Below are positions 26,681 to 63,193 of a stretch of DNA of 64,000 nucleotides, piece by piece. This DNA comes from an uncultured Actinomycetes bacterium (GTDB lineage Bacteria > Actinomycetota > Thermoleophilia > UBA2241). The translations under genes were made by a program, and so were the position numbers. The stretch is taken from the NCBI GenBank assembly GCA_963725665.1, contig CAVRZA010000004.1, forward strand, positions 160,001 to 224,000. The letters are read 5' to 3'. The notes beneath the pieces are model-generated. The model had not been told where the DNA came from and did not search any database. It saw only the letters and a program-made list of their open reading frames with translations. The number at the start of each line of letters is the position of its first letter. Positions within the stretch are counted from its first letter, which is position 1.

Positions 26681-26940
26681 CACCGGGGGTCGTCGGGGGT
26701 GGTGCTCGCTCGTCTGTCTCGTCCCGTTACACCGTTTGCGGCCCAACGCCCCTCCACTCGTCTCCGCTCAGGGCGGTCGCCGTCCGGCACAGGTCATCGC
26801 CATGTTCGGCGGTGACACTCCTCTCTCCGCGTCTCTGTGAGTATTATTACGAGTAGGGACGATCGAGTCGGCGACTACGCCCAGGGACCGTCGAGTCGGC
26901 GTATCGGCGTCGATGTGATTGCGACGAAAGGATTTGTGAG

Positions 26941-27888
26941 GTGAAGACGACCGTCTTCTTCGCCACGGACGTGCACGGGTCGGAGGTCTGCTGGCGCAAG
27001 TTCGTGAACTCCGCCAAGCACTACGAGGCCGACGTGCTCATCCTCGGCGGCGACATGACCGGCAAGGCCATCGTGCCCATCACCGCCGACGGGGCCGGTC
27101 ACTATCACTTCTCCATGCAGGACCAGCGGCACGAGGTCGAGGGTGACGAGGAGCTCGCGCAAGCCCAGAGGCTGATCCAGGACCACGGCTACTACCCCGT
27201 GCCCATGACGCGCGAGGAGTTGCAGGACTACACGGACCACCCGGAGCACCTCGACGACGTCTTCCGGCGGGAGATGCTGCGCACGGTCGAGCGCTGGATG
27301 GCCTTCGCCGACGAGCGCCTCACCGGCAGCGACATCCTGTGCATCGTCTGCCCCGGCAACGACGACAGCCACGAGATCGACCCCATCATCGACGCCACGA
27401 CGTCGATCACGGTGGGCGAGGGCAATGTGCTCGATCTCCCGGGCGGCTATCAGCTCGTCTCGAGCGGCTACACGAACCCCACGCCCTGGGACACCCACCG
27501 CGAGGAGGACGAGCCGGCGCTCAAGGCGCGCATCGAGGCTATCGTCAATCAGGCATCGGTCGGCCCGGAGCGCCTTGTCCTGGGTCTCCACGCGCCGCCC
27601 TACGACACCGTGCTCGACATCGCCCCGAAGATCGACTGGGAGTCGCTTACGGTGCAGGGACAGGACACGGCGCACGTGGGCTCGACGGCCGTGAGGGAGG
27701 TGATCGATGAGGTCCAGCCGGTGCTCTCCCTGCACGGCCACATCCACGAGAGCCGTGCGGCCATCCGCATGGGGCGCACCCTGGCGGTCAATCCCGGCAG
27801 CACCTACGTGGAGGGCACGTTGTCGGGCTGCCTGCTGCAGCTCGACGGCAAGGACAAGATCAAGCAGTACAGGCTGGTTTCTGGGTGA
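26941..27888 (+). CDS. Metallophosphoesterase (Icc-related, calcineurin-like)
   Basis: TDVHG, GGD, PGNDD, LHAPP, HGHIHE. Confidence 0.9.
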   Translation: MKTTVFFATDVHGSEVCWRKFVNSAKHYEADVLILGGDMTGKAIVPITADGAGHYHFSMQDQRHEVEGDEELAQAQRLIQDHGYYPVPMTREELQDYTDHPEHLDDVFRREMLRTVERWMAFADERLTGSDILCIVCPGNDDSHEIDPIIDATTSITVGEGNVLDLPGGYQLVSSGYTNPTPWDTHREEDEPALKARIEAIVNQASVGPERLVLGLHAPPYDTVLDIAPKIDWESLTVQGQDTAHVGSTAVREVIDEVQPVLSLHGHIHESRAAIRMGRTLAVNPGSTYVEGTLSGCLLQLDGKDKIKQYRLVSG

Positions 27889-27963: not shown

Positions 27964-29605
27964 ATGGCAGACACGACAGCAGGCGCACCGATGGAGAAGA
28001 CGCTGTTCGTGCGCAAAGCGAGCGGCCTTGTCAAGGGCTGGTCGACGACAGACGGATTCAGGTACTCGTTCTTCTCCACCAACATCTTCCTCGGGATCTT
28101 CGGCTTCACCTACGCCGTCTTCATCCCCGGCGGCAGCCTCTTCTGGGCCGTCGTCATCACGACGGCCCTCGTGCTGCTCGAGGTCGTCGTGTACGCGGGG
28201 CTGATCTCGGCGATGCCACGTGCCGGCGGCGACTACGTGTGGCAGACGCGCGTGTTCCACAGCTCGGTCGGCTTCGTCCTTGGTGCGACCGGCTGGTGGT
28301 TCATCCTCTGGCTGTGGATCCCCCTGTACGCGGCGCTCTGCGTCAACCAGTTCATCATCCCGCTGCTAAGGATCGTGGGCTGGGGCAGCGCCGCCGACTG
28401 GCTGTTCACCAGCAACGGCATCTTCGTGGCGTCGCTGGCGACGATCGCCCTGGCGACCTACCTGGTCGCCATCGGCATGAAGTCCTACGCGACCTTCCAG
28501 AAGTGGGCCCTGTGGATCGGCTTGGCCGGCATGCTCGTGGGCGGCATCCTCCTGCTGGTCAACTCGAAGGCGAATTTCATCGCCGCCTTCAACCGCGAGA
28601 ACCTTCAGCTATACGGGGTCACAGGCGCGTACGGGAAGACGCTCGCCGCCGGCGGCGAGGGCATGCCCACGTCGATGTTCTCCGGTGCGGCGTGGGACAC
28701 GCTGAAGCTGATGCCCTTCATGCTGTTCTGGCTGCTTGTGGCCGAACTGGGGCGCTACCCTCTACGGCGAGGTCCGCGGCGCCAAGGACTTCCGCAAGAA
28801 CCTCTACCAGATGGGCGGCGGTCTCCTGGCGGCGGCTGCCATCGGACTTGTCTTCCTGGCGCTGGTCAGCAAGACGATGGGCTTCAAGTTCTTCATGGCC
28901 GGCAACAACGGCTACGAGGGCGTCATCTACGGCTACATCCCCGCGACGCCGCAGGGGGGCGAGTACCTCTCACCTACGGCGATGACGGCCTGGCTCGTCA
29001 ACAACTCGGCCTTCCAGGTCATCCTCATCGCGGCCATCTCCCTCCTTGTGTTCGGGTGGTGGGGGACGGTGTTCCTCTCGTCGACGCGCATGATCTTCGC
29101 GTCGGCCTTCGACCGCATCCTGCCGGAGCGGGCGGCGGCGGTCACAAAGGGCGGCGTGCCCTACGTGGCGCTGCTGCTCATGGCCATCCCGTCGGTCATC
29201 GTCTCGGCCTTCTACGCCTACGCGGACTGGTTCATCAAGCTCACCTACGACGCGACCCTGGTGATCGCCATCATGTTCCTCGGGTCCGGCCTCGCGTTCA
29301 TGATCATGCCGTGGCGCACCAAGGCTATCTGGGTGGCCTCAGCCCTGCCCAAGGCCAAGATCGCAGGCATCCCGGTGATGGCGATCGCCGCGGCCGGCTA
29401 CTCCGCGTTCCTCGCCTTCAACCTCTACCTGTGGTTCTACGATCCGACCAACACGTACGGCGTCGGCTACAAGAACAGCAACTCACTCATCTTCATGGCG
29501 ATCCTGTACGTCAGCGCGATCGTCATCTGGGTGGTCGCCTGGGTGGTGCGCAAACGCCAGGGCATGGCGCTCGAGGCGGTGGCGAAGGAGATCCCAGTCG
29601 AGTAA
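27964..29605 (+). CDS. APC-family amino acid/amine permease (one frameshift near 28735)
   Basis: LFVRKASGLVK, AMPRAGGDYVW, then a shifted frame with RMIFASAFDRILP. ~12 TM helices. Confidence 0.88.
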
Positions 29606-29699
29606 CTGAGACGGACTGGGGCCGCAGCGCCCCTCTGATCGTTGTGCGGGCGGCGGCTCGGCTGGTACAGCCGAGCCGCCGCCACGAGAAGGAGGTTGC

Positions 29700-31106
29700 A
29701 TGAAGATACTGACGAGGCTGGGCGACAACTCCAACGTCGAGCTGACGCGGGAGGAGTTGCGCAAGGAGCTCGAGGAGGGCACGCAGGCCGCGGCGACCAA
29801 GGCCAAGATCGCCCCGCTCACCGAGAACGAGCTCGACTACCTCGAGGAGATGTTCGTCTGTCCCAGCCGCATCTGGGGCGTCGAGCGCGGCCACGAGGTG
29901 GTCATGACCAAGGACGGCTGCGTCAACGCGCTCAACTCGTCGCGCATGTCGAGCGGCGTCGCGGCGCCCGTCAACCGCGAGGTGGGGGTGCGCCTCTTCG
30001 AGTCGATGCTGGGCTTCGACTCGATGGAAGTCTCGCACAACGACTACTCGGTCAAGCCGCAGCGCTTCCTCAAGGCGCTCGAGCAGGTGCATATGGAGCT
30101 CCTGCAGGAGACGACGATCTTTCCCCTGCTCTACGGCTTCATGCCGAACTTGGGCCTCTACTACCGGCCCGACGGCTCCTTCCCCAACCCCTCCGACCTG
30201 CTGCCGATGGGCAAGATCGACGAGGCTCGGCAGACGCAGGAAGAGGCCCTCGAGGCTTGCCAGGCGGACTGCATCGAGATGAGCGACTGCATGCTCGAGA
30301 TGGGTGCCGACGGCATCGACTACGACACCGTGGCGTCGACCGGCGACGCGGAGTTCCTGGCGGTGCTGCGCACGACCGAGCATGTGGCGAACGAGACGGG
30401 GCTGCCGGTCGAGATCGGCATGTCGGCCGAGATGGTGCTCGGCTTCCACGGCCAGCTCGAGTACGACGGCGTGCGCCTGGCCGGCCTGTGGCCGCACCAG
30501 CAGGTGCAGCTCTGCGAGAAGGCCGGCTGCACGATCTTCGGCCCGGTCGTCAACACCAACACGAGGAAGACCATCCCCTGGAACCTGTCGCGGGCCGTCA
30601 CCTTCGTCAAGGCCTGCACCGACATCGCCAAGATCCCCGTGCACGCCAACTGCGGCATGGGCGTCGGCGGCGTGGCCATGTTCGAAACGCCCGCCGTCGA
30701 CGTCGTGACGCGCGCCGGCGCGGCCATGGTCGAGATCGGCCGCGTCGACGGGTTGTAGGTGGGCACGGGCGACCCGGCCGGGATGCACACGGCGCATCTG
30801 TTGGCCTCGTCGATGGGTGGCATCAGGGCTGCCGGAGATCTGGTGGCGAGGATGCAGCTCAGCAAGAAGATGAGGATCGACGATGCCAAGCGGTACGTGG
30901 CCGACAAGCTCCATGTGAGCCCGCTCGACCTCTCCGACCCGACGGTGATGAGGCTCCTGCGCGAGGAGCTCGACATCGGCGTGGTCACGGCCGTCCCCGG
31001 CATCGCCAAGGGCATGGCGGCCAAGGTGCGCATCGCCGAGCTGCTCGACATCGAGATCAACTCGGTCGAGCAGTTCAAGAAGAAGACGGGCCTGCGCAGC
31101 GTGTAG
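29700..31106 (+). CDS. mtbB: Dimethylamine:corrinoid methyltransferase MtbB with in-frame TAG (pyrrolysine) at 30756-30758
   Basis: ORFs 29700..30758 and 30759..31106 are in the same frame, separated only by TAG. VDGL-[TAG]-VGTGDP...[10 protein letters not shown]...LREELDIG matches the MtbB VDG(I/V)-Pyl-IGVGDP context. Confidence 0.92.
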
Positions 31107-31114
31107 ACCGCAAG

Positions 31115-31272
31115 TGCGGCGAGACGTCGGCGCCCCTGCCGGGGCGCAAGCGCCGTTAGGCGAATGCAGAACGCGCGAGCGTGGGCGCGCGGGGTCGGGC
31201 TGCGGCGAGCGTCGGCGCCCCTTCCGCGGTGCACGCCGCCAGCCGAGTGCAGTTAGGCGAATGCAGAACGCG
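31115..31272. repeat. Degenerate two-unit direct repeat between convergent mtbB and tkt
   Basis: gttaggcgaatgcagaacgcg exact at 31155-75 and 31252-72. tgcggcgag(a)cgtcggcgcccct at 31115 and 31201. Confidence 0.75.
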
Positions 31273-36025: not shown

Positions 36026-36979
36026 TCATTGGTCTGCGAGCCATTTCGGATAGTCGGGGTCGGCGAAGCCGCGCTCGGCGCGTCCGACGCGCTCCATGGC
36101 CCATTCCATGTAGTCGAAATCGATCTTCGACACCGTGTGCTGGATCATCGCCCACACGTCCCACCAGATGGCGGAGACGATCTTGTAGAGCATCATGCGG
36201 CCGAAGAGACGCTCGTCCATGTGGCCCAGGTAGACTTCGATGACGAGCCGCTCCTCCTCACGCGAGTACGGGTGCTCCATGACGTGGTCGCCGAGGTCGA
36301 AGTACGGGTCGGTCATGCCGCCGTACTCCCAGTCGATGATCCACATCTTGCCGTCGGCGTCGATGATGAAGTTCTCCGAGAGCAGGTCGTTCTGGCAAGC
36401 GACGTCGGGGACGGGGTTGCGCGCCGTCGCCTCTTCGATCTCGTCCATTCGCTTCAGCATCGCGGCGAGACGGTCCGGCATGGGAGTGTTGATCTCGCGC
36501 GAGACCTTCGTGTAGCGGCGTAGCATGTCGAAGATCTCGATCTTGTTGCTGAAGACGGCCTTGTCGTGGTACACGCGGACCGCCTCGACGGCCTGCTTGA
36601 TGCGCTCCGGGTGCCCGGCCATCGTGTCGGGGTGCATGACCTCGCCGTCGACGAAGTCGATGACCATGGCCTTCTCGGGCTCGATGACGTGGGCGACCTG
36701 GGGGGCCGTGCCGATCCTGGCCGCCTCGAGCATGCACTCGCGCTCGATGTCGCGGTCGATGAACATGTCGGTGCCGGCCCCGGGCACGCGCAGTACGTAC
36801 TTGCCGCCGCCGGGGTTGCCCCAGCCGCCGTTCACCCAGATGATGTAGTTGTGGTTGGTGATGCCGCCCGGGAGCTCCTCCCAGCGGATGTCCTTGCCCT
36901 TCCAGTCGTCGATGCGCGCCACGGCCTCTTCGGGAGTCAGTCCGTGTGCCTTGTGGGTCTCGGTCGTCTCGCCTCCCAT
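36026..36979 (-). CDS. Choline/ethanolamine kinase-family phosphotransferase
   Basis: GGITNHNY, VLRVPG, CQNDLLSENF, IIDWEYG, DPYFDLG. Confidence 0.88.
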   Translation of the reverse strand: MGGETTETHKAHGLTPEEAVARIDDWKGKDIRWEELPGGITNHNYIIWVNGGWGNPGGGKYVLRVPGAGTDMFIDRDIERECMLEAARIGTAPQVAHVIEPEKAMVIDFVDGEVMHPDTMAGHPERIKQAVEAVRVYHDKAVFSNKIEIFDMLRRYTKVSREINTPMPDRLAAMLKRMDEIEEATARNPVPDVACQNDLLSENFIIDADGKMWIIDWEYGGMTDPYFDLGDHVMEHPYSREEERLVIEVYLGHMDERLFGRMMLYKIVSAIWWDVWAMIQHTVSKIDFDYMEWAMERVGRAERGFADPDYPKWLADQ

Positions 36980-37060
36980 TCCCCCTCCTTCTCTCATCTG
37001 CCGGTTGCAGCGGTGGGAAAGCCTGGTCTTCCCCGTCGCGTAGGAACGTTGCGGATCATC

Positions 37061-38443
37061 TCAGGAGACCGGGACCTCGAGTCCCATGGCGGCAAGTTCG
37101 GAGCGAACCTCGTCCATCACCTTGAGGTAGTCATCATTGATGATCCGCTTGCTCTTCGGGTCGTAAACCTCCTGGAAAGTGAGTCCTTTCTCGGGATCCT
37201 TCAGCTTGTCGCCGAACAGTGGATAGAGCTTCTGCGCGATCGGCTCGGCCTGCGCGCGCGTCAGCTTGGCGGCGGCGAGGCCCATCTCGGCGTGGAACTT
37301 GTGGTCGTCGGGCACCAGCGAGTCGGACTGCACCGCCATCGCCGGGTGGCCGGAGAAGACGTTGCCGCCGGAGGTCACCACAGCGAGCAGGTAGCAGGCC
37401 ATCTCGTGGTGGTACTGCTTGGTCCCCGAGCCGCCGCCGAGGTAGGGCAGGTTGACCATCGGGTAGCGCATGTTGCGCCCGATGGCCGCGTTCGACATGG
37501 CGATCGCCCAGATCAGCGGCTTCGTCGATGAGAGGTGCAGCTTGCTGTGCAGCGGTGCGTTGTAGTGGTAGCTGCCGCGGAAGATCAGGTTGCCCATGAT
37601 CATGTAGCAGGTCGCCGTGACGGCCACGCCCTCGGCGCCGCCCGCGTAGCCCCCGAAGAGCGGCGTCGAGGTCGAGCCGATGTTGGCGCTGATGCTGTTG
37701 TAGAAGGCCACCTTCTGCAGCGCCTCGTAACCGACCACCATCTCGCTGAGGAAGTCGATGAGGAAGCCGTCGCTGGGGCGCAGGCCGAAGTCGGGATAGC
37801 TGGCGGCGAACATCGAAGCCGGCTGCGAGGCGGCCGAGATGCCGTTGATGATGGGCAGGCCGGCGCGGCCCGACCGGCGTATCCCCTCGCGCGCCAGGCG
37901 CACCGTCTTGCACGCGGCGAGGACCTCCTGCGGCGAGCGCACGCGCGCATCCCTGCCGCGGAGGTGCAGGATCGACGGGACGCTCACCGAGTCGACGATG
38001 CTGAAGGACGCCATCTTCTCGACGGTATCCATGTAGACCTGCTCGTCGGTGGTGTAGATGCCGCCGCCCACGTGCACCCACGGACGGTCGTCCGTGGTGT
38101 CGGGGCGGCGGCCGTACATCGTCTTGCGCTCACGTCCCTCGCCGAAGGTCGCGCCGGTGGGGCACTGTGCGCAGGCGGTGAGGATCTCGTCGCGCGTGAA
38201 CTCCATGACGCGGTTGGTCTCGGGGCAGTAGCCGCCGGCCTCGGCCAGCAGGTCGACGGCCGCCTGGAAGACCCGGTCCGTAAGGTCGTCGTCGGTGTTG
38301 ATGATGGTCTCTCTGTCCCACTTGATCTGATGGCGCACGATCAGCTCGGCGAGCTTGGGGACGTAGCGCTTCATGTAGTAGTCGATCTCCGAGGTGAGCG
38401 GACCAGTCTCGGCGCGATCGAATACCTCGATCAGGTCAATCAT
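37061..38443 (-). CDS. MtmB-family monomethylamine methyltransferase homologue, pyrrolysine-free
   Basis: DDDLTDRVFQAA, PLFGGYAGGAEG, KGLTFQEVYD. The Pyl-equivalent region (GRPGMGI-O) reads GRAGLPI-I. Confidence 0.88.
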   Translation of the reverse strand: MIDLIEVFDRAETGPLTSEIDYYMKRYVPKLAELIVRHQIKWDRETIINTDDDLTDRVFQAAVDLLAEAGGYCPETNRVMEFTRDEILTACAQCPTGATFGEGRERKTMYGRRPDTTDDRPWVHVGGGIYTTDEQVYMDTVEKMASFSIVDSVSVPSILHLRGRDARVRSPQEVLAACKTVRLAREGIRRSGRAGLPIINGISAASQPASMFAASYPDFGLRPSDGFLIDFLSEMVVGYEALQKVAFYNSISANIGSTSTPLFGGYAGGAEGVAVTATCYMIMGNLIFRGSYHYNAPLHSKLHLSSTKPLIWAIAMSNAAIGRNMRYPMVNLPYLGGGSGTKQYHHEMACYLLAVVTSGGNVFSGHPAMAVQSDSLVPDDHKFHAEMGLAAAKLTRAQAEPIAQKLYPLFGDKLKDPEKGLTFQEVYDPKSKRIINDDYLKVMDEVRSELAAMGLEVPVS

Positions 38444-38530
38444 TGAATGCTCCTTCAGGTCGGGCCGCCGTTGGCGCGGGGTTGCGGGTCGACGACGCCG
38501 TCATCGCGAAGTCGCTCTCGGCGCCCGTCG

Positions 38531-39175
38531 TCACGCGAGCTCCGTAGCCACCATCACGGCTTCGTAGGCCGAGGCCGCCCAGCCGTCGGCGCCGATCTGG
38601 TCGGCCCACGCCTGAGTGGTAGCCCCACCTCCGACCATGACCTGGTACTTGTCGCGCGTCCCTTGCTCCTTGAGCGCTTCGATCAGGTCGCGCTGCCCTA
38701 CCAGCGTAGTGGTCAGCAAGGCAGACATGGCGATGATGTCCGCGTCGACCTCCTTCGCCTTGTCGACGAACTTGAAGAGGTCGACGTCGATGCCCAGGTC
38801 CCAGACCTCGAAGCCCGACGTCTCGAAGAGGAGTCTGAGGATGTTCTTGCCGATCGAATGCAGGTCGCCCTTGACCGTGCCGAGGACGATCTTGCCCTTC
38901 TTGGGCCCCTCGCCGCCGCTCTCCCTGATCTTTGGCTCGAGGATCTCCATGGCCGCTTGAAAGGCCAGCGCGGCCTGCATCAGCTCGGGCAGGAAGATCT
39001 CCTCGCACTCGAACTGCTCGCCGATCACGTTGAGCCCGGGCAGAAGCCCCTGATCGATGATGGCTTTCGCCTCGACACCCTCGGCGAGGGCATCGTCGAC
39101 CGCCGCGAGGACCGCGTCCTGGTCCTGGTCGATGACCGCCTGCTTGAGCTTCTCAAAGACCTGTTCGTCTGTCAT
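38531..39175 (-). CDS. Methyltransferase cognate corrinoid protein (MtmC/MtbC/MttC-like)
   Basis: IFLPELM cap domain, GTVKGDLHSIGK (DxHxxG), SALLTTT, VGG. Confidence 0.93.
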   Translation of the reverse strand: MTDEQVFEKLKQAVIDQDQDAVLAAVDDALAEGVEAKAIIDQGLLPGLNVIGEQFECEEIFLPELMQAALAFQAAMEILEPKIRESGGEGPKKGKIVLGTVKGDLHSIGKNILRLLFETSGFEVWDLGIDVDLFKFVDKAKEVDADIIAMSALLTTTLVGQRDLIEALKEQGTRDKYQVMVGGGATTQAWADQIGADGWAASAYEAVMVATELA

Positions 39176-39253
39176 CTGGTGCGCTCCCTGTCCCTTCTTC
39201 AGCCTGCGCTGTTGTTCAGGCCGATCGTCGCCCGTGTCGTGGCCGCCGGGTCG

Positions 39254-40711
39254 TCACGCCCGCGCTTCTTCCAGGGGCACGGCGTCGCCGGCGACGATGC
39301 CGGGGAAGCGTTCCCTGATGGCATCGTCGAGGTCGGCGTCCCACACCGCCGGATTGGCCTGCGAAAGGATGCGCAGCGCCTCGGCGAGCGCGCGCGAGCG
39401 GATCTCGGGCCGTCCCGCATCCTCCCACTGGGGCCGCATGCCGCGGTCGGCCAGCCGCGGCAGCACCGCGGTGGTCCGCATGCGCGCCTTCGTGTGCTTG
39501 CGGCCCATGTAGCTGCCGCCGGGGCCGACCGCGGCGATCTCGTCGATGGCCAGGTTCTCGTCGCTGAACTCGAGGCCCCGCCAGACGCGCTTGTCCATGA
39601 GCGCGACCTCGTTGTCGATGACGCACTTGGCGAAGTCGAAGGCCATGAGCGAGCTCAGGAGGCCGCCCATGTTGAGCAGCGTCGCGCCGGCGGCGACGCC
39701 GAGGAGCGTGTTCATCCCCGTTTCAAAGCCCGACTGCGCGTCGTTGGCGTGCGCGTTGGTGAGGCCGATGTAGCCCCCGGAGGGCACGTCGTAGTAGCGC
39801 GCCATCTGCGCCACGCCAGCCAGGAGCATGCCGGTCTCGATGGCGCCGGGGGCGTAGGCGCCCGTGCGCATGTCCGCCACGGTGGGCAGGCTGGCGTAGA
39901 TCACCGGTGTGCCCTCGGCGACCATCTGCTGCAGCGCGGTGATTGCGAGGAACTCGGCATTGGCGACGACCAGACAGCCCAGCAGCGTCATCGGCGCCGT
40001 GAGCCCCGCGTTGGGCACCACCGTCGTGTAGACGGGCAGGCGCCGCTCCGTGAGCCACATGACCGCCTCGGTCGAGTCGACGTCCATCGTGAGTGGGCTG
40101 ACCATGGGGCAGTAGTGGTGGTTGATGATCGGGCGCTCACGGTAGGCATCCGCGCCCCCGGCGATGAGCTCGCCAAGCGCGATCACCTGGCGTAGGTCGT
40201 CCATGGTGGGCGTGTTGCTGCGCACCGGCTTGAGGCAGTTCTTCAGCGCGGGATAGAAGCGGCTCAGGCTGTGCTGCCCGGGCGGGGCGTCGTCGGCCAG
40301 CGTAGAGATGCTGAAGACGTCGAACCCGGGCAGCTCGTTGATGAGGTAGGCGATAGTGGCGATGTCGGTGGAAGTCGCGCGGCGTTCTACGCCGGTGACC
40401 GGGTCGACCACGTTGGGCGCCGAGGAGCCGGTGACGACGACGGGACCGTCGTCGGGGATGGTGCGGTCGAACCCGGGGTCGCGGCCGCGGAACGTGAAGC
40501 TGCCCGGCGCCATCGTGCGATATCTCTCCACGACGGCGCCGGGCAGCTTCACGAGGCCGGTCTCGTCGTCGACGAGGCACCCATGCTGGGCGAGTATCTC
40601 TCTCGCGCGCGCGTTGTGCGCGAGGACGCCGACCGACTCGAGGACCTCGAGCGAGGCCTCGTGGGTGCGCTCGACCTCCTCCGGCGTGAGCAGTTCGAAG
40701 AACGCTGCCAT
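39254..40711 (-). CDS. MttB-superfamily methyltransferase, pyrrolysine-free
   Basis: EASLEVLESVGV, SPL, APMTLLG, DMRTG, DAQSGFE. The Pyl site is occupied by Leu (YIG-L-TNAH). Confidence 0.92.
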   Translation of the reverse strand: MAAFFELLTPEEVERTHEASLEVLESVGVLAHNARAREILAQHGCLVDDETGLVKLPGAVVERYRTMAPGSFTFRGRDPGFDRTIPDDGPVVVTGSSAPNVVDPVTGVERRATSTDIATIAYLINELPGFDVFSISTLADDAPPGQHSLSRFYPALKNCLKPVRSNTPTMDDLRQVIALGELIAGGADAYRERPIINHHYCPMVSPLTMDVDSTEAVMWLTERRLPVYTTVVPNAGLTAPMTLLGCLVVANAEFLAITALQQMVAEGTPVIYASLPTVADMRTGAYAPGAIETGMLLAGVAQMARYYDVPSGGYIGLTNAHANDAQSGFETGMNTLLGVAAGATLLNMGGLLSSLMAFDFAKCVIDNEVALMDKRVWRGLEFSDENLAIDEIAAVGPGGSYMGRKHTKARMRTTAVLPRLADRGMRPQWEDAGRPEIRSRALAEALRILSQANPAVWDADLDDAIRERFPGIVAGDAVPLEEARA

Positions 40712-40716
40712 CAGGC

Positions 40717-42006
40717 CTACACCTCACTCTCGCCGGCGGGGGCCGGGGTGGCGGGGGACTGGGCACGGGCGGGATCCGAGCCAGCGACGACGGCCGCCGA
40801 CGCGGCGATCTCGGCCAGCTCTGCAATGTGGCTCTCAATGAACTCAATCAACTTCACCTGATGCTCGAGGTACATGAGGTACTCGTCGTCGTTGCGCGCT
40901 GTCTTGTCCTCGTAGTAGGCGGTGACGTCCCAGTTGAGTACGTACAGGTTGCCGTTGGCGATCATGCGCGGCAGCAGCGCCAGCTCGGCCGCCGACATGG
41001 GACCGGGCTCGTCGTGCCTGGCAGCCTCGTCCTGGTAGGCGCGCACGAAGATGGCGGTCTTGTCGAGCCACAGCTCACCGCTGTCCGGCCCCTCCCAGGA
41101 GCTGCAGAAGTACGCCAGGGCGAGGCCCAGGTCAAAGAGGCGGTAGTCGAGCTTCGACCAGTCGAAGTCGAAGAAGCCGGTGCACGAGGACCCAGACCAC
41201 TCCACGGGGCGCATCGCGACGGCCTCCTGGTCGACCCACTTGAGGTTGCCGGGGTGGAAGTCGCAGTGCACTGGGATGAAGGGCATCCCCAGCAGCTGTG
41301 GCTCGATCGCGGTCCCCTTCTCGATGACCTCGAGGATCGCCGGCAGCTTGGCGAGGAAGTATTCGTCACTGCGCGTGTCGGTCGCTTGGGTCGCGCAGTC
41401 CTTGAAGGTGGCCGGAAGGCTGCGCAGCAGGTCCATGATCGGCGGCTGTTCGCGGGCGAGGCCTCGCGGATCGAAGTCGTGAGCGCAATAGTGGAAGTCG
41501 GACAGCACGCGCGCCGCGCTGTCAAGCTCTCTGTCGGTGCAGCGGTTCTTGACCCACGTGTACCTGTCCGCGCCGCTGAGCATCTCGTAGACGGCGAAGA
41601 AACGCACGAGCGTTCCGCCGTCGAGGACCTCCTCCCGAGTGACGAACGTGCCCGCGGCTTTGGTCGGGAAGACCTGCGCCGCCAAGTGGAAGCCTTTGCG
41701 GTTGATGTGACTCACGAGCGCGTGCTCGAAGCGGACTTCGCGCTCGGTGATGGCGCGGTTGTACTTGCGCACGAAGTAGCGGCGCTCACCGCTGCCGTCG
41801 TCGGCCCAGATGGCGAAGCTCAGGTTGACGTAGCCGCCGGTGATCTGTTCGATGCGCACGAACGCGCCCAGGTCGTAGTCGGTGGTGAAGACCTCGACGA
41901 GCTGCCCGGCGAGGAACTCCCATTCCAGCACGTCGCGCAGATGCGTGGTCTCCGCGACGAGGCTCTTCGTCAGCTCGAACAGCTCGTTCGCTCGCCGTAT
42001 GTCCAC
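40717..42006 (-). CDS. APH / homoserine kinase type II-like phosphotransferase
   Basis: GGYVN, FVRKY, HCDFHPGN, FDFDW. Confidence 0.88.
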   Translation of the reverse strand: MDIRRANELFELTKSLVAETTHLRDVLEWEFLAGQLVEVFTTDYDLGAFVRIEQITGGYVNLSFAIWADDGSGERRYFVRKYNRAITEREVRFEHALVSHINRKGFHLAAQVFPTKAAGTFVTREEVLDGGTLVRFFAVYEMLSGADRYTWVKNRCTDRELDSAARVLSDFHYCAHDFDPRGLAREQPPIMDLLRSLPATFKDCATQATDTRSDEYFLAKLPAILEVIEKGTAIEPQLLGMPFIPVHCDFHPGNLKWVDQEAVAMRPVEWSGSSCTGFFDFDWSKLDYRLFDLGLALAYFCSSWEGPDSGELWLDKTAIFVRAYQDEAARHDEPGPMSAAELALLPRMIANGNLYVLNWDVTAYYEDKTARNDDEYLMYLEHQVKLIEFIESHIAELAEIAASAAVVAGSDPARAQSPATPAPAGESEV

Positions 42007-42031
42007 AGCGCTCCCCCTCAGATCCGTGCCT

Positions 42032-42844
42032 TCACGCGACGACGCACCGCATCCCCGCGCGCTCTATCTGCTCGCGCGCGGGCTCCTCGACGCTGTCGTC
42101 TATCACGACCACGTCGACCTGGTCCGCGCGACAGATCACCACGTCGGCGACCACGCCGATCTTGCTGCGGTCGGCGAGCACGATCACCTCGCCGCGCGTG
42201 TGGTCGATCATCGCGCCTTCGATGCTGGCCATGGCGAGGCTCGGTGTGGTCACGCCCTCTTCGAGGTCGAACCCGTCGGCGCCGATCAACGTCTTGCCGG
42301 CGCGGAAGCGTTCCAGGTGCTCGAGGGCCGGCGGACCCTCGACCGCGTTCGTGCGCGGGCTGTAGAACCCGCCCAGCAGGATGAGCTCGAGGCGCAAGCC
42401 TTGGGCCTCGGTCACGGCGCCGACGTTGTGCGTGATCACCCGCGCCTGGAGCGCGGGATCGACGTGGCGCAGAACGCGTGCCGCCGTGGTGCCGTTGCTC
42501 AGGAACACCGTCTCGCCGGGCTGGATCATGGCCGCCGCCGCCTTGGCGATGCGCCCTTTCTCCTCCGTGTGCGCCGCCGCGCGCTCGACGTAGAGCGGCT
42601 CTTCGAGCATATGGCGCTTGAGGATCGCGCCGCCGTGGGTGCGCAACAGCATGCCCTCGGCTTCGAGCCGCTCGAGGTCCCTGCGGATGGTCATCTCCGA
42701 GACGCCGAGATCCTCGCTCAGCGACGAGACGCGCACCTCGCGCCGCTCGTTGAGGATCTCGACGATGCGCACGCGGCGCCCGGCTGGGATCATCTCACGG
42801 ACCTCAGGGACTCCTGTCGGTGACACTGGTTCCCTTGTGCTCAT
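42032..42844 (-). CDS. DeoR/GlpR-family transcriptional regulator
   Basis: VSEMTIRRDL, RTHGGA, GTT, LADRSK. Confidence 0.93.
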   Translation of the reverse strand: MSTREPVSPTGVPEVREMIPAGRRVRIVEILNERREVRVSSLSEDLGVSEMTIRRDLERLEAEGMLLRTHGGAILKRHMLEEPLYVERAAAHTEEKGRIAKAAAAMIQPGETVFLSNGTTAARVLRHVDPALQARVITHNVGAVTEAQGLRLELILLGGFYSPRTNAVEGPPALEHLERFRAGKTLIGADGFDLEEGVTTPSLAMASIEGAMIDHTRGEVIVLADRSKIGVVADVVICRADQVDVVVIDDSVEEPAREQIERAGMRCVVA

Positions 42845-42862
42845 GGTTGCCGCCCGGCGATT

Positions 42863-42889
42863 CCGAACATAGTCGCACACATCATAGCA
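42863..42889 (-). promoter_or_regulatory. Extended -10 promoter (TGCTATGAT) with downstream ATGTTCG box
   Basis: Minus strand tgctatgatgtgtgcgactatgttcgg just upstream of the deoR start. Confidence 0.5.
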
Positions 42890-43046
42890 CTCGCCGACCG
42901 GATTCAAGCTGTGCAGTTCTGGGAGATGTTGGGCGGCCCTGCCGGGTGTTGAGAGTGGCAGACTAGTCGAAAAGTCTTGACATCATAGGAGCCGAGGAAG
43001 AAGGTTGCGCCGACAGGTTTGGCCATGCTGAGCATTGGGGGTCTCT

Positions 43047-53673: not shown

Positions 53674-53921
53674 GGAGCGACTCCTCCTCGTCGATCGAAG
53701 CCGGCGTCGCCGGCGGCCGTCACGGCAGGTCGCGGCCGCCGGCCCATAGGAGCATTCGCCGCCGCCACTCCCTCGTCAAGTCAGCCCGACGGTATGCTTG
53801 TCGCTGATCAGTGCGCCGGAGTGGGGTGCTGGTCGGGATCATGGAGGCTGCCGGCTTGTTCTCGGGGCGGCGTCCCGGAGTGCGTGTGGGTGCGCGCTCC
53901 GGTGTCAGGAAGGGGCTGCGT

Positions 53922-55358
53922 GTGAAGGCAGAGTTGCGAGTCTTGAGCCCGGCCGAGCGCGAGCAAGTGCACGAGCGCACGCTGCACGTCCTCGCCACCA
54001 AGGGCATGCGCGTCGACACGGCCCAGGGACGTGTGATCCTCCGCGAAGCCGGGGGGCAGGTCGACGAAGAGACGCGCGGTGTCCGCTTCCCCGAGGAGCT
54101 CGTCGAGCGGTCGATCGACATGGCGACCAAGGAGTTCGCGCTCGGCGGTCGCCGAGCCGATTGGAGCTTCGCGCTGAACGCCGGCGGCTTCTCGCTCTGT
54201 GCAGACGGCGGCAGCAACGTGTTGCTCGACCGGCGCACGGGCGAGCGCCGCGATTCGACATTCGAGGATTGGCTCGAGATGACGCGCGTCCTCGACGCCA
54301 TCGAGGACGTCGGGATGTACTGGTGCATGATCGACGGCGGTCTCGACTGGTCGACGCCCGTCGGCATGGTCGAGTACCTGACGCACCTGTTCGGCACGTT
54401 CGGGCGCCACGTGCAGGACTCCTACGACACGCCGCGGGTCATGCCCTGGGTCACGCGTGCGCTCGAGGTCGTCTTCGGCAGCCGCGAGGAGGTGCGTCGC
54501 CGGCATCCGTTCTCGTTTCTGATCACGCCGGCCTCGCCCCTGATCATCGAGGAGCACTACACCGAGTCCTGGCTCGCCTCACGCGGCTACGATATTCCCG
54601 TCGCCGTGATGCCGATGCCGCTCATGGGCGCCACCGCGCCCGGGAGCCGCATCGCCACGCTGGTGCAGGCGAACTGCGAGGTCCTGGGCACGCTCTGCCT
54701 GGTGCAGGCGGCCGACCCGGGGGTGCCGTTCATCTACGCGCCCGTCGTCGCTAGCATGGACCCGCGCAGCGGGCGCTACAGCGGCGGCGCCATGGAGCAC
54801 TACGTGCTCGGCGCCGCCGCGACCGAGATGGCCCGTCACTACGGCTTTCCAGTGCTTGCCAGCGGCTGCGGCACCGACCATTTCGTGCCCTCGCTGCAGG
54901 CGGCCTACGAAAAGGCGATGAGCGCTCTGCTCGTTACCCTCTCGTGGCCCGACTTGCTAGTTGGCCCCGGCATGCTCGGCGGCGCCTCGGTCATGAGCTT
55001 CGAGCAGCTCGTCATGGACGTCGAGGTCTTCCGCGCCGCGCGCGCCGCGCACGAGGGCATCACGGTGAGCGATGAGTCATGGCTGGATGAAGCTGTGGCG
55101 CACGTCGACTTCGGCGGCAGCTTCCTGTTCGAGAGATCGACCAAGGAGAACGTGCGCCGCGGCGAGTGGGCGATGAGCCGCTTCGGCCTGCACGACACGC
55201 GCGGCGCCTGGGAGCGCGGCGGCTCGCCGACGACGCTCCAGCAGGCGCGCGACGAGGTAGAGCGGCTCCTCGCCTCGCACGAGCCGGAGCCGCTCCCCGA
55301 GGACGTCGCGCGCGCGCTGCGAGATCTGCGTCGTGAGGCGGCCGCGGCGTCCTCCTGA
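53922..55358 (+). CDS. MttB-superfamily methyltransferase, pyrrolysine-free (second copy)
   Basis: VHERTLHVL, SPL, GATAP, MDPRSG, QAAYEK. The Pyl site is occupied by Gly (SGC-G-TDH). Confidence 0.88.
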   Translation: MKAELRVLSPAEREQVHERTLHVLATKGMRVDTAQGRVILREAGGQVDEETRGVRFPEELVERSIDMATKEFALGGRRADWSFALNAGGFSLCADGGSNVLLDRRTGERRDSTFEDWLEMTRVLDAIEDVGMYWCMIDGGLDWSTPVGMVEYLTHLFGTFGRHVQDSYDTPRVMPWVTRALEVVFGSREEVRRRHPFSFLITPASPLIIEEHYTESWLASRGYDIPVAVMPMPLMGATAPGSRIATLVQANCEVLGTLCLVQAADPGVPFIYAPVVASMDPRSGRYSGGAMEHYVLGAAATEMARHYGFPVLASGCGTDHFVPSLQAAYEKAMSALLVTLSWPDLLVGPGMLGGASVMSFEQLVMDVEVFRAARAAHEGITVSDESWLDEAVAHVDFGGSFLFERSTKENVRRGEWAMSRFGLHDTRGAWERGGSPTTLQQARDEVERLLASHEPEPLPEDVARALRDLRREAAAASS

Positions 55359-61807: not shown

Positions 61808-63193
61808 ATGCCGCACCTGAAGATGTGGGAGATCATGCAGCGGGCCGCCGAGGGCCCCTTCTGCGAAGACGACACCTTCCTCTACGAGGTCTTCCTGCCG
61901 ACGATGAAGCAGGTCCTGCGCAAGTACGAGATCAGGTTCGACCCGGCCTCACCGGTGCCCGCAGACGACGATCTCGCCGACCGCGTCTGGCGAGGCCGCC
62001 GTCGAGCTGTTCCTCGAGGTCGGCGTGCACAACGTCGACACGCAGCGGCGCATCATGATCAGCGAGGCCGAGCTGAACGAGGCGCTCTACCTCGCGCCCC
62101 GAGCAGCACATCGTCGGGGCGGGCCACGAGACGCGCTGGTGGAGGCCGCGTCGTGTCGAGGACGAGCGCGCGCCGTTCTGCATCTTCAGCCCCGACATCA
62201 CCTACGACGAGGACATCTTCCTGCAGGCCTCGATGGCCTACGTGCAGGAGCCTCTGGCCGACGGTGTGTGCGGTCCTATCCTCGAGGAGAGCATCGGCGC
62301 GCAACATCGTCTCGGGCACGCCCTCGGAGATGGCCGGCGTGATGGAGCACGCCATGTTGCTGCGCAACGCGGCGAAGCTGGTCGGCCGGCCGGGGCTCTT
62401 CTTGGTCGCGGTGGGCACCGCCCAGTCCGACACGGGTCAGGTCGCCGTCAGCAACGACGAGTGGGGTGTGCGCGCGAGCGATGGTCGCCTCATCGGCGTG
62501 CTTACCGAGATGAAGACCGACAACGAGCTTCTGAACAAGGTCGCTCACTGCAAGCAGTACGGCTGCGCCATCGGCTGCCTGACGGGCGCCATCTACGGCG
62601 GCTACGCCGGTGGCGCCGAGGGCACCGCCGTGCTCGAGACCGCCCATCACCTGGTGGGCCTGACCGTCTACCAGCACAACTTCAACAACAGCTTCCCGTT
62701 CCACCTGCAGTACACGTCCAACAGCGGGCGGGAGATGCTGTGGGTGGTCAGCATGGTGCACCAGGCGCTGGCGCGCAACAGCCGCATCCTGTCGACCTCG
62801 CAACGGCTTCTTCAACGCCGGACCGGGGACCGACATGCTCCTCTACGAAGCGGCCGCGCACGCCATCGCCAGCACCGTGTCCGGAGGCGACCTGTGGACG
62901 GCGGCGCCGCGGCACAACAAGTACCGCAACTACGCGACGCCGCTCGAGGCGCGTCTCGCCTGCGAGGCCGCCCACGCTGTGGCGCGGCAGGGGATGACGC
63001 GCGCGCAGGCCAACGAGATCGTCGTACAAGCTCCTCGGCGAGTACGAGGAGACGATCGCCGACGCCCCGGCCGGCAAGCCCTTCCAGGAGTGCTACGACG
63101 TCATGAAGGTGCGGCCGAAAGAGCTGGTACCTCGACATGTACAAAGCCGCCAAGGAGAAGCTACACGGCCTGGGCGTCGAGTTTCCCTATTGA
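61808..63193 (+). CDS. MtmB-family methyltransferase homologue, pyrrolysine-free (multiple frameshifts, probably sequencing errors; pseudogene not excluded)
   Basis: DDDLADRVW, GRPGLFL-V-AVGT at the Pyl position, IYGGYAGGAEG, shifted-frame GPGTDMLLYEAAA and AGKPFQECYDV, ends LGVEFPY-TGA. Confidence 0.8.

What the first reader, a model, noticed from the sequence alone, without database searches (positions are those of the whole stretch)
29700..31106. Pyrrolysine-encoding mtbB (in-frame TAG) in a high-GC, probably actinobacterial genome
Seen: two same-frame ORFs are joined by a single TAG (30756-30758), and both halves are MtbB-like, with context [20 protein letters not shown]. Established: MtbB dimethylamine methyltransferases carry catalytic pyrrolysine at this position (VDG.-Pyl-IGVGDP), encoded by UAG. 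Inference: this organism uses a 22-amino-acid code. Bacterial Pyl is best known from Firmicutes and Deltaproteobacteria, so an Actinomycetota-like host would be notable. The TAG is a clean in-frame codon at the homologous site, unlike the indel-type errors elsewhere in the window.
Basis: partly seen in the sequence, partly recalled or inferred. Interest (0 to 1): 0.9.

Follow-up and report, generated by a model that had tools for sequence, protein, structure and literature searches.

The report
Pyrrolysine-coding mtbB in a Thermoleophilia genome
This is a real gene for a dimethylamine-type methyltransferase whose internal TAG stop codon is read as the rare 22nd amino acid pyrrolysine, in a soil/wetland actinobacterium that carries the full pyrrolysine machinery; the trait has already been reported for this bacterial group, but its scale here (14 such genes) is striking.

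Summary
ORF 29700-31106 (+) has one in-frame TAG at 30756-30758, and the read-through product is a full-length MtbB (PF09505 E 1.5e-186; TIGR02368 equivalog 523.6 bits against a cut-off of 369). The TAG sits at the family's pyrrolysine site. Rfam PYLIS_2 (mtbB) matches 30756-30855 from model position 1, and the same TAG motif occurs in 64 of 64 related loci.

The genome encodes pylT (CUA), pylSc, pylSn and pylBCD, all above curated cut-offs, so the 22-amino-acid reading is supported. Relatives are MAGs titled Thermoleophilia, Actinomycetes or Actinomycetota.

The novelty claim is weaker. PylRS in a Thermoleophilia MAG (Guo 2022) and expressed Pyl-mtbB/mttB in Actinobacteriota MAGs (Ellenbogen 2023) are already in print.

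Points I did not find in print:
- The genome has 8 mtbB, 5 mttB and 1 mtmB with the TAG.
- PylSc is near-universal in its family (73 of 79) and absent from the rest of the phylum sample.
- TAG still ends about 39% of ORFs, and RF1 is present.
- This mtbB clade sits beside a permease, phosphoesterase, phosphatase and choline-kinase-like genes. This hints at a substrate other than dimethylamine.

The parts
26857..27888 (+). Metallophosphoesterase-like gene, first gene of the conserved neighbourhood
   Evidence: Coding-like ORF. Only weak family matches: NF006988 24 bits; the orthologue in L036 matches Pfam Metallophos_3 at 28.8 bits. A homologue lies upstream of mtbB in 32 of 64 related loci.
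27964..29605 (+). APC-superfamily (amino-acid/amine) permease of about 545 aa, interrupted by a frameshift near 28733-28737
   Evidence: tblastn of the intact L036 orthologue maps residues 4-258 to 27973-28737 in one frame and residues 257-543 to 28733-29602 in another. The orthologues match PF13520 AA_permease_2. The gene lies upstream of mtbB in 45 of 64 loci.
29690..29695 (+). Shine-Dalgarno-like AGGAGG, 4 nt before the ATG
   Evidence: Read directly from the sequence.
29700..31106 (+). mtbB-family gene: 468 codons including one in-frame TAG; terminator TAG at 31104-31106
   Evidence: PF09505 E 1.5e-186, protein 5-462 on profile 5-463 of 463. TIGR02368 equivalog 523.6 bits against a cut-off of 369.1. 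AlphaFold2 model with pLDDT 81.3, pTM 0.87 and eight beta strands.
30756..30758 (+). Pyrrolysine codon (UAG), residue 353
   Evidence: The column is invariant in the 22-sequence alignment A2. The motif is present in 64 of 64 loci. In the model it lies in the last barrel strand, 351-354.
30756..30855 (+). PYLIS_2 region (Rfam RF02509), including a hairpin at 30828-30847
   Evidence: 63.6 bits against a gathering score of 36, model positions 1-100 of 100. The hairpin (alignment columns 73-80 with 85-92) has two pairs with compensatory third-position changes, in 23 and 35 of 55 sequences. The 120-nt fold has z = -3.1.

Best explanation
Window 29700-31106 is a functional mtbB-family gene for a corrinoid-dependent methylamine methyltransferase. 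Its codon 353 (UAG, 30756-30758) is translated as pyrrolysine.

Shown here:
- The genome encodes a CUA-anticodon tRNA-Pyl directly downstream of pylB-pylC-pylD, and a split PylRS (pylSc and pylSn) about 45 kb away on the same contig.
- The TAG is conserved at one column in all relatives and paralogues.
- RF1 is present, and TAG ends about 39% of gene-like ORFs.

Inferred from established knowledge of the Pyl system (recalled, not from a call):
- PylB, PylC and PylD make pyrrolysine from two lysines, and PylSc/PylSn charge it onto tRNA-Pyl.
- The charged tRNA competes with RF1 at UAG, so read-through is partial or conditional, not a genome-wide reassignment.
- The downstream PYLIS_2 region may raise read-through efficiency.

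The full-length protein is predicted to be a TIM barrel with Pyl at the end of the last strand. By analogy with MtmB and MttB, Pyl binds the amine and presents its methyl group to a Co(I) corrinoid protein. The methyl group would then go to tetrahydrofolate through a pterin-binding methyltransferase. RamA-type activases would repair oxidised corrinoid, and the methyl group would feed a Wood-Ljungdahl pathway. Genes for all of these are in the genome.

The default substrate is dimethylamine. That is inferred from family membership only.
For: - Family: (curated cut-offs passed end to end).
- Site. PYLIS_2 starts at the TAG in the window and in the 7 other mtbB paralogues; PYLIS_3 starts at the TAG of the 5 mttB genes.
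- Conservation of the TAG. Present in 64 of 64 loci, including 4 Bacillota loci at 47-50% identity.
- Database homologues: all 120 listed cover at most 75% of the query and none exceeds 391 aa. In the 1.84-billion-representative search, N-terminal pieces end at query residue 352 and C-terminal pieces begin at 355-357.
- Machinery: PylSc 314.6 bits, PylSn 119.9, PylB 448.3, PylC 338.7 and PylD 211.6, all above NCBIfam cut-offs.
- tRNA: tRNA-Pyl(cta) at C6 343702-343774 is the only CUA tRNA among 52. It has a 6-bp anticodon stem, a 3-nt variable loop and a short D arm.
- Lineage: PylSc is found in 73 of 79 genomes of the same family. MtbB is found in 38 of 40 family genomes that are at least 90% complete, and all 150 listed matches have exactly one TAG.
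- Downstream pathway: 2 RamA-like genes, 4 pterin-binding genes, ACS and FTHFS. A paralogue is followed directly by a corrinoid protein, and a Pyl-mtmB by a corrinoid protein and an Amt transporter.
- Literature: Actinobacteriota MAGs express Pyl-encoding mtbB (PMC10805028, passages).
Against: - There is no protein-level evidence for Pyl in this organism.
- TAG is not depleted. It ends 622 of 1551 or 39% of 2145 gene-like ORFs, and RF1 is present. Efficient read-through would therefore extend many proteins. mtbB itself ends in TAG, and read-through there would add 49 residues.
- No corrinoid-protein gene lies next to this copy. The nearest is at 38531-39253, in another operon.
- The permease just upstream is frameshifted in this assembly.
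- The assembly's own reads could not be examined. The best public run holds only 0.29 of the sampled words.
- Alignment to an experimentally characterised archaeal MtbB was indirect, through profile and covariance models only.
Confidence: 0.93

Rival explanations
1. The decoding is the same (Pyl at UAG), but this clade is not a dimethylamine enzyme. It would be a Pyl-dependent demethylase of another non-quaternary methylated amine linked to phospho-ester metabolism, such as N,N-dimethylaminoethanol or its phosphate. That compound is the end product of the phosphocholine demethylation pathway described in Eubacterium limosum.
For: - The window's orthologue clade is separate, with 100/100 support and a long stem, and is only 58-62% and 49-50% identical to the other paralogues.
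- Its neighbourhood is conserved. An APC permease lies upstream in 45 of 64 loci and a metallophosphoesterase-like gene in 32. A HAD-family hydrolase lies downstream in 31 and a choline/ethanolamine-kinase-like gene in 17. Many loci have cut flanks, so these are lower bounds.
- It has no adjacent corrinoid protein, whereas paralogue C3_259 has the canonical mtbB-corrinoid pair.
- About 5 kb away in the window lies a cluster of DeoR, APH kinase, non-Pyl MttB, corrinoid protein, non-Pyl MtmB homologue and a choline-kinase-like gene. This resembles the MthK/MthB/MthC system, which converts phosphocholine to DMAE phosphate and stops there (PMC12155760: abstract, section 10 and passages).
Against: - The protein passes the NCBIfam equivalog cut-off for dimethylamine methyltransferase.
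- Gene neighbourhood alone is weak evidence.
- No residue-level or biochemical comparison of substrate pockets was possible, because no MtbB structure is in the PDB by sequence.
- The permease and phosphatase could serve unrelated functions.
Confidence: 0.2
2. The gene is a pseudogene or a naturally split gene. TAG would be a true stop, and only a 352-residue fragment would be made, perhaps with a separate 115-residue product.
For: TAG is a common terminator in this genome and RF1 is present. Gene callers list homologues as 352/353-residue proteins.
Against: - The TAG is fixed at one column in 64 of 64 loci and in 8 paralogues that are only 48-71% identical to each other.
- The downstream 115 codons keep frame, coding-type composition and conservation.
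- In the model the stop falls inside the last barrel strand.
- The full pyl gene set and pylT are present.
Confidence: 0.03
3. The TAG is a sequencing or assembly error in an indel-prone assembly.
For: Frameshifts exist in the window and genome: the permease near 28735, MtmB-like pieces at about 62297-63123, and the mtbB paralogue C2:503975-505331, which lies in two frames.
Against: Those errors are indels, not substitutions. The same TAG is present in 63 other independent assemblies and in all paralogues. None of the 40 listed differences in the laid contigs lies at 30756-30758, but 255 further rows were not shown.
Confidence: 0.01
4. TAG is reassigned genome-wide to pyrrolysine, as recently described for some archaea, or a different suppressor inserts a standard amino acid.
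For: The tRNA-Pyl and its synthetase are present. The archaeal precedent is Kivenson et al. 2025, which I saw only as cited in PMC13695967.
Against: - TAG ends about 39% of gene-like ORFs, no less than the 23-29% in three Pyl-lacking relatives (n = 60-78 each; crude ORF calls).
- RF1 is present above its cut-off.
- No other tRNA has a CUA anticodon.
Confidence: 0.02

Closest known systems
MtbB1-3, dimethylamine:corrinoid methyltransferases of Methanosarcina (PF09505 / TIGR02368)
   Same: Full-length match above the equivalog cut-off, a single in-frame UAG, and the PYLIS_2 region starting at the UAG. Length is 468 aa with Pyl at residue 353. The archaeal values of about 467 aa and Pyl 356 are recalled, not from a call.
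   Different: The host is bacterial (Actinomycetota) and high-GC. The methyl acceptor pathway is presumably THF and Wood-Ljungdahl, not coenzyme M. This copy has no adjacent mtbC. It is one of 8 diverged paralogues, against the three I recall for Methanosarcina. TAG is a frequent stop codon here.
Bacterial Pyl systems with split PylRS (Desulfitobacterium, Acetohalobium, Bilophila, deltaproteobacterial symbionts)
   Same: PylSn and PylSc are separate genes, as in all bacterial cases surveyed (PMC9630628, passage). Pyl is used in methylamine methyltransferases. TAG is kept as a stop codon.
   Different: The gene order is unusual. pylB-pylC-pylD-pylT form one unit, and pylSc and pylSn lie about 45 kb away, on opposite strands and separated by a corrinoid-protein gene and a radical-SAM gene. 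The canonical pylTScBCDSn order is recalled, not from a call. The mtbB expansion is large, at 1-13 copies per genome across the family.
Actinobacteriota MAGs of a thawing-permafrost mire expressing Pyl-mtbB/mttB (Ellenbogen et al. 2023, PMC10805028) and the Thermoleophilia PylSc listed by Guo et al. 2022 (PMC9630628 supplement)
   Same: Same phylum and class label, same gene families and same truncation at the amber codon. One related locus (L013, 87% identical) comes from a MAG whose isolate name resembles a genus named in that paper. By eye, the PylSc here shares the conserved blocks of the listed Thermoleophilia sequence; I did not align them.
   Different: In the passages I read, those papers identify Pyl genes by truncation or list the synthetase only. 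I did not see the full pylTSnScBCD set, the family-wide distribution, the paralogue counts, stop-codon usage or the conserved neighbourhood described there. I did not read the supplements of PMC10805028.
MthK/MthB/MthC phosphocholine demethylation system of Eubacterium limosum (PMC12155760)
   Same: Kinase, MttB-superfamily and corrinoid-protein genes are co-located in the window (36026-42063), and choline-kinase-like genes lie beside the mtbB orthologues.
   Different: MthB lacks Pyl and acts on a quaternary amine. The gene studied here is a Pyl enzyme of a different family (MtbB). Any link is by neighbourhood only.

Membership tests
MtbB (Dimeth_PyL, PF09505 / TIGR02368 equivalog) | Full-length sequence match above the curated cut-offs | tested here: met
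   PF09505 621 bits (cut-off 25), profile 5-463 of 463. TIGR02368 523.6 bits (cut-off 369.1), profile 7-465 of 466.
MtbB (Dimeth_PyL, PF09505 / TIGR02368 equivalog) | A single in-frame UAG at the family's conserved pyrrolysine position | tested here: met
   Rfam PYLIS_2 model position 1 (the UAG) aligns to 30756. The column is invariant in A2, including the Bacillota homologues, and the motif is in 64 of 64 loci. Direct alignment to Methanosarcina MtbB was not possible with the sequences available.
MtbB (Dimeth_PyL, PF09505 / TIGR02368 equivalog) | Cognate corrinoid protein (MtbC) encoded alongside | tested here: not met
   No B12-binding gene is adjacent to the window copy, and the nearest (38531-39253) lies in another operon. 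The feature is met for paralogue C3:259391-260764, which is followed by a B12-binding protein. Adjacency is usual but does not define the enzyme family.
MtbB (Dimeth_PyL, PF09505 / TIGR02368 equivalog) | Dimethylamine-specific methylation of Co(I) corrinoid | not testable with these tools
   This needs an enzyme assay. The neighbourhood hints at another amine substrate.
MtbB (Dimeth_PyL, PF09505 / TIGR02368 equivalog) | TIM-barrel fold with Pyl at the barrel mouth | tested here: inconclusive
   The AF2 model (pLDDT 81.3, pTM 0.87) has eight strands, with residue 353 in the last one. Foldseek against the PDB returns only TIM-barrel proteins, but weakly (best E 1.9e-4, TM at most 0.37 on the query). 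No MtbB structure is in the PDB by sequence. Residues 357-371 have pLDDT below 50.
Pyrrolysine genetic-code expansion (pylT, pylS, pylBCD) | tRNA-Pyl with a CUA anticodon and atypical architecture | tested here: met
   ARAGORN calls tRNA-Pyl(cta), 73 nt, at C6 343702-343774, with a 6-bp anticodon stem, a 3-nt variable loop and a short D arm. Rfam gave no tRNA match there at gathering score.
Pyrrolysine genetic-code expansion (pylT, pylS, pylBCD) | Pyrrolysyl-tRNA synthetase (PylSc plus PylSn in bacteria) | tested here: met
   TIGR02367 314.6 bits (cut-off 178). TIGR03912 119.9 bits (cut-off 51).
Pyrrolysine genetic-code expansion (pylT, pylS, pylBCD) | Biosynthesis genes pylB, pylC and pylD | tested here: met
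   448.3, 338.7 and 211.6 bits, all above cut-off, contiguous on C6 343844-347001.
Pyrrolysine genetic-code expansion (pylT, pylS, pylBCD) | Pyl residue detected in the protein | not testable with these tools
   This needs mass spectrometry.
Genome-wide TAG-to-Pyl code (archaeal type) | TAG no longer used as a terminator, and release factor for UAG lost | tested here: not met
   TAG ends 622 of 1551 ORFs, or 39% of 2145. prfA scores 489.9 bits, above its cut-off.
PYLIS_2 (Rfam RF02509) | Covariance-model score above gathering, starting at the UAG | tested here: met
   63.6 bits against 36. The paralogues score 60.7-89.3 bits. Whether the element promotes Pyl insertion is not testable here, and the literature calls its role unclear (PMC3639795, passages).

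The most novel reading that the evidence does not exclude
A whole family of soil and wetland Thermoleophilia has turned pyrrolysine into a general tool. They hold up to 13 diverged Pyl-MtbB paralogues per genome. The clade in this window is conserved next to a permease and to phosphoesterase, phosphatase and choline-kinase-like genes. It would demethylate dimethylaminoethanol (or its phosphate, or a similar secondary or tertiary amino alcohol), not dimethylamine. That would complete choline and phosphocholine demethylation past the point where non-Pyl systems stop. It would be the first Pyl enzyme with a substrate outside mono-, di- and trimethylamine.
Probability: 0.2. Interest if true: 0.75.

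Novelty: new member of a known kind. Interest (0 to 1): 0.45.

Why it matters
The basic finding is that this gene and genome use pyrrolysine. It adds a well-documented case, with all machinery on long contigs, to a bacterial phylum where Pyl has so far been noted only in passing. It also shows that gene callers systematically truncate these genes.

The wider picture is more interesting.
- Pyl is near-universal in one Thermoleophilia family and was not found in the rest of the phylum sample.
- Each genome carries many diverged Pyl-mtbB copies.
- TAG remains a very common stop codon, and RF1 is kept.

This makes the lineage a natural system for asking how a bacterium tolerates an ambiguous stop codon at scale. 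It also raises the question of whether Pyl enzymes have diversified to new amine substrates. Ecologically, such bacteria compete with methylotrophic methanogens for methylamines in peat and wetlands, which bears on methane budgets.

Tried and rejected
- Public reads. No run holds more than 0.29 of the sampled words, so the source reads were not available. Contigs from two DNA and two RNA-library runs were laid at 85% likeness or more and cover the gene patchily. One RNA-library contig spans 30665-30927. None of the 40 listed differences is at 30756-30758, but 255 rows were not shown. With 8 paralogues and many relatives, the contigs cannot be assigned to this gene. I draw no conclusion on expression or on the base call from this.
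- Direct alignment to Methanosarcina MtbB. No named archaeal sequence was obtainable. One search lists only close, unnamed homologues. One search found no PDB chain. The original 2000 paper (PMC111316) is not held. PMC1242214 gave gene lists but no codon positions. I used the Rfam and curated protein models instead.
- Fold search. It gave only weak, generic TIM-barrel matches, with no match to MtmB or MttB structures among those listed.
- Donor of the Pyl genes. The 22-row tree is unrooted and has only 4 non-actinobacterial rows, which group with paralogue group B. No direction of transfer can be inferred. The pattern-based locus search is biased towards close relatives.
- The C1:36714-38156 mttB-family match flagged '1 TAG'. 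That TAG lies upstream of the conserved region, not at the Pyl column, so I did not count it.
- Representatives crossing the Pyl column. Short fragments show Q, L or S there, and several are visibly frameshifted. Without their DNA I could not tell alternate-code gene calling from real sense codons.
Full report
**1. Observation**

The sequence at 30750-30770 reads GGG TTG TAG GTG GGC ACG GGC in the frame opened by the ATG at 29700. That ATG is preceded by AGGAGG at 29690-29695. The ORF table lists 29700-30758 (352 aa) and 30759-31106 (115 aa) in one frame. Reading TAG as O gives 468 residues with [18 protein letters not shown], and the terminator at 31104-31106 is also TAG. Both pieces have a third-position G+C of 0.94.

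**2. What the gene is**

The read-through protein matches Pfam Dimeth_Pyl (PF09505) at E 1.5e-186 over profile positions 5-463 of 463. It matches the NCBIfam equivalog TIGR02368, [dimethylamine--corrinoid protein] Co-methyltransferase, at 523.6 bits against a cut-off of 369.1. No PDB chain matches by sequence.

An AlphaFold2 model built on a 22-sequence alignment has pLDDT 81.3 and pTM 0.87. It shows eight beta strands alternating with helices, and residue 353 lies in the last strand, 351-354. Foldseek returns only TIM-barrel proteins, and weakly. A product ending at residue 352 would therefore lack the end of the barrel and the C-terminal helices.

**3. Is the TAG at the pyrrolysine site?**

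Four lines of evidence agree.
- Rfam's only gathering-level match in the 64-kb window is RF02509, 'PYLIS_2, pyrrolysine insertion sequence mtbB'. It covers 30756-30855, model positions 1-100 of 100, at 63.6 bits against 36, and the model's initial UAG lies on the window's TAG. The paper on PYLIS regions defines them as the 100 bases from the in-frame UAG of known Pyl genes (PMC3639795, passages). I did not confirm that the Rfam model derives from that paper.
- 64 related loci were fetched from one-genome-per-species collections. The motif GAYGGN-YTN-TAG-GTN-GGN occurs exactly once in each of the 64. A plain in-frame read found it in 62, and the other two have indels upstream. Four of these loci are Bacillota or Syntrophomonadaceae MAGs at 47-50% identity.
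- In the word-indexed protein database, all 120 listed homologues cover at most 75% of the query and none exceeds 391 aa. In the exhaustive representative search, N-terminal pieces end at query residue 352 and C-terminal pieces begin at 355-357.
- The column is invariant in alignment A2.

I could not align directly to Methanosarcina MtbB. The review passage states that amber placement is conserved within each methyltransferase class.

**4. Does the organism have the machinery?**

The window is C4:160001-224000 of a 3.73-Mb, 12-contig genome that is 97.5% complete with 5% contamination. Six-frame scans find all five protein genes above their curated cut-offs:
- PylSc, C6:296347-297081, 314.6 bits
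- PylSn, C6:298938-299198, 119.9 bits
- PylB, C6:345979-347001, 448.3 bits
- PylC, C6:344775-345908, 338.7 bits
- PylD, C6:343844-344635, 211.6 bits

ARAGORN finds tRNA-Pyl(cta) at C6 343702-343774, directly downstream of pylD. It is the only CUA anticodon among 52 tRNAs. It has a 6-bp anticodon stem, a 3-nt variable loop and a short D arm.

The layout is pylB-pylC-pylD-pylT on one strand. pylSc and pylSn lie about 45 kb away, on opposite strands and separated by a corrinoid-protein gene and a radical-SAM gene. The contigs have uniform G+C of 0.67-0.71, and TAG-bearing methyltransferase genes lie on C1, C2, C3 and C4. I therefore see no sign that the pyl contig is foreign.

**5. Scale in this genome**

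PF09505 matches eight places, each with exactly one TAG; one of them (C2:503975-505331) is also frameshifted. The paralogues are 48-71% identical to each other and all carry DG[LY]-TAG-VGxGD. All match PYLIS_2.

PF06253 (MTTB) matches 31 places. Six are flagged with a TAG, and five of those carry it in one column, AG[AL]-TAG-GD[ST]K. The sixth is upstream of the gene. The five match PYLIS_3.

PF05369 finds one Pyl-mtmB (630.7 bits, 1 TAG), followed by a corrinoid protein and an Amt transporter. It also finds non-Pyl homologues. That makes 14 candidate Pyl genes.

Downstream components are present: two RamA-type activases, four pterin-binding proteins, acetyl-CoA synthase and formate-THF ligase. 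A tRNA-Sec is also present.

**6. Host and distribution**

Of the 64 loci, 60 come from MAGs titled Thermoleophilia, Actinomycetes or Actinomycetota, at 76-90% identity.
- In a sample of the class, PylSc is found in 83 of 401 genomes. By family this is 73 of 79 in the window's own family, 9 of 61 in a second family and 0 of 260 in ten others.
- In a phylum-wide sample it is found in 2 of 401 genomes: the window's genome and one from that second family.
- MtbB is found in 38 of 40 family genomes that are at least 90% complete, with 1-13 matches each. All 150 listed matches have one TAG, and 130 more were not listed.
- The two genomes without MtbB are 1.7-1.8 Mb and also lack PylSc.

**7. How UAG is handled**

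In a crude set of gene-like ORFs, TAG ends 622 of 1551 (40%), TGA 855 and TAA 74. A looser filter gives 39% of 2145. In samples from three Pyl-lacking relatives, TAG ends 29% (n=62), 26% (n=78) and 23% (n=60). RF1 is present at 489.9 bits.

TAG is therefore not depleted, and this is not a genome-wide reassignment. Decoding must be competitive or conditional, as inferred for other Pyl bacteria (recalled). Several pyl ORFs (pylSc, pylSn, pylD) and mtbB itself end in TAG. Read-through of the mtbB terminator would add 49 residues.

The region after the UAG folds better than shuffles (z = -3.1). In 55 orthologues the hairpin at 30828-30847 keeps pairing through compensatory third-position changes at two pairs, in 23 and 35 sequences. 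99.3% of cells are paired, and 0 of 500 shuffles reach the covariation score. The stem lies on the conserved AAGDLVA motif and also pairs in the paralogues. The shuffle control does not remove relatedness, so I treat this as consistent with the Rfam model, not as proof of function.

**8. Neighbourhood and substrate**

Upstream of mtbB lie a metallophosphoesterase-like gene (26857-27888) and an APC-family permease (27964-29605, frameshifted near 28735). Across the 64 loci the permease is present in 45, the phosphoesterase in 32, a HAD hydrolase downstream in 31 and a choline/ethanolamine-kinase-like gene in 17. None of these occurs in the four Bacillota loci, and many flanks are cut.

The window clade is distinct in the tree, with 100/100 support. 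Unlike paralogue C3_259, it has no adjacent corrinoid gene. About 5 kb downstream, the window holds DeoR, APH kinase, non-Pyl MttB, corrinoid protein, a non-Pyl MtmB homologue and a choline-kinase-like gene.

This recalls the MthK/MthB/MthC phosphocholine pathway, whose product is dimethylaminoethanol (phosphate) (PMC12155760). It also recalls the first functional non-Pyl MtmB homologue, MtqB (PMC13044021, abstract). I therefore keep open, at about 0.2, that this clade acts on a phospho- or hydroxyethyl-methylamine and not on dimethylamine.

**9. Comparison with what is in print**

- Guo et al. 2022 count 81 bacterial PylRS genomes including 'two Actinobacteria' (main-text passage). Their supplement lists an 'Actinobacteria bacterium' and a 'Thermoleophilia bacterium' PylSc.
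- Ellenbogen et al. [quoted passage not shown]
- I ran searches for pyrrolysine with Thermoleophilia, Actinobacteria, Actinomycetota and Actinobacteriota; for RBG-16-64-13 with methylamine; and for Thermoleophilia with mttB, dimethylamine and corrinoid. In the held library they returned no paper describing the family-wide distribution, the paralogue expansion, the stop-codon usage or the conserved neighbourhood.
- I did not read the supplements of PMC10805028, and subscription-only papers are not covered.

**10. Verdict**

This is a genuine pyrrolysine-encoding mtbB-family gene in a Thermoleophilia-type actinobacterium with a complete Pyl system (confidence 0.93). The wider pattern merits moderate interest (0.45): it comprises a Pyl-rich family, many diverged mtbB copies, abundant TAG stops and a phospho-ester neighbourhood.

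Noticed in passing
window 36026-42982 (- strand): A cluster of DeoR regulator (42032-42982), APH-family kinase (40717-42063), MttB-family gene with no in-frame stop (39254-40723), B12-binding corrinoid protein (38531-39253), MtmB-family gene with no in-frame stop (37061-38500, 226.8 bits) and a choline/ethanolamine-kinase-like gene (36026-37060). It resembles the published MthK/MthB/MthC phosphocholine demethylation system and includes a non-Pyl MtmB homologue. Only one member of that protein class has a demonstrated function (PMC13044021).
   Followed up: partly
window about 62297-63123 (+) and 53919-55340 (+): An MtmB-like stretch is spread over three reading frames (G000:C4:222297-223123), so it is either frameshifted or an assembly error. 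A further non-Pyl MttB-family gene lies at C4:213919-215340.
   Followed up: no
window 28733-28737: There is a frameshift in the APC permease directly upstream of mtbB. The intact orthologue maps in two frames that meet here. Whether this is an assembly error or a real pseudogene is not resolved.
   Followed up: partly
window 31156-31175 and 31253-31272: A 20-nt exact direct repeat lies 97 nt apart in the intergenic region after mtbB. These are the only two copies in the genome. The second copy overlaps the next in-frame TAG (31254) that would end a read-through product.
   Followed up: partly
G000:C6:296200-299348 and C6:343702-347040: The pyl gene layout is unusual. pylSc and pylSn are convergent or divergent around a corrinoid-protein gene and a radical-SAM gene. 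pylB-pylC-pylD-pylT lie about 45 kb away, preceded by a nitroreductase gene. The pylSc, pylSn and pylD ORFs end in TAG.
   Followed up: partly
G000:C11:550041-550138: A tRNA-Sec (tca) is present, so the genome may expand both UGA and UAG. I did not look for selA, selB or selenoprotein genes. One RamA-like match has a single in-frame TGA.
   Followed up: no
G002 and G014 (same family): Two small genomes (1.7-1.8 Mb, 98% complete, 1-2 contigs) in the Pyl-rich family lack both PylSc and MtbB. This suggests loss of the trait in a reduced-genome branch.
   Followed up: no
protein P0125 (463 aa, 40% identical): This is the only listed representative that spans the whole query. It has W in the Pyl column, in ...VDML-W-ATTGDP.... 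It may be a non-Pyl MtbB homologue or a product of alternate-code gene calling.
   Followed up: partly
L071 and L074 (Bacillota / Syntrophomonadaceae MAGs): A PYLIS_3 (mttB) match lies about 1.3 kb downstream of the PYLIS_2 (mtbB) match, so Pyl-mtbB and Pyl-mttB are adjacent there. This differs from the actinobacterial loci.
   Followed up: no
G000:C2:493945-513908: Four mtbB paralogues (group B) cluster within 20 kb, together with a long MttB-family gene, solute-binding and ABC-transporter genes, a DAO-family oxidoreductase, an adenosine-deaminase-family gene and a phage-type integrase.
   Followed up: partly
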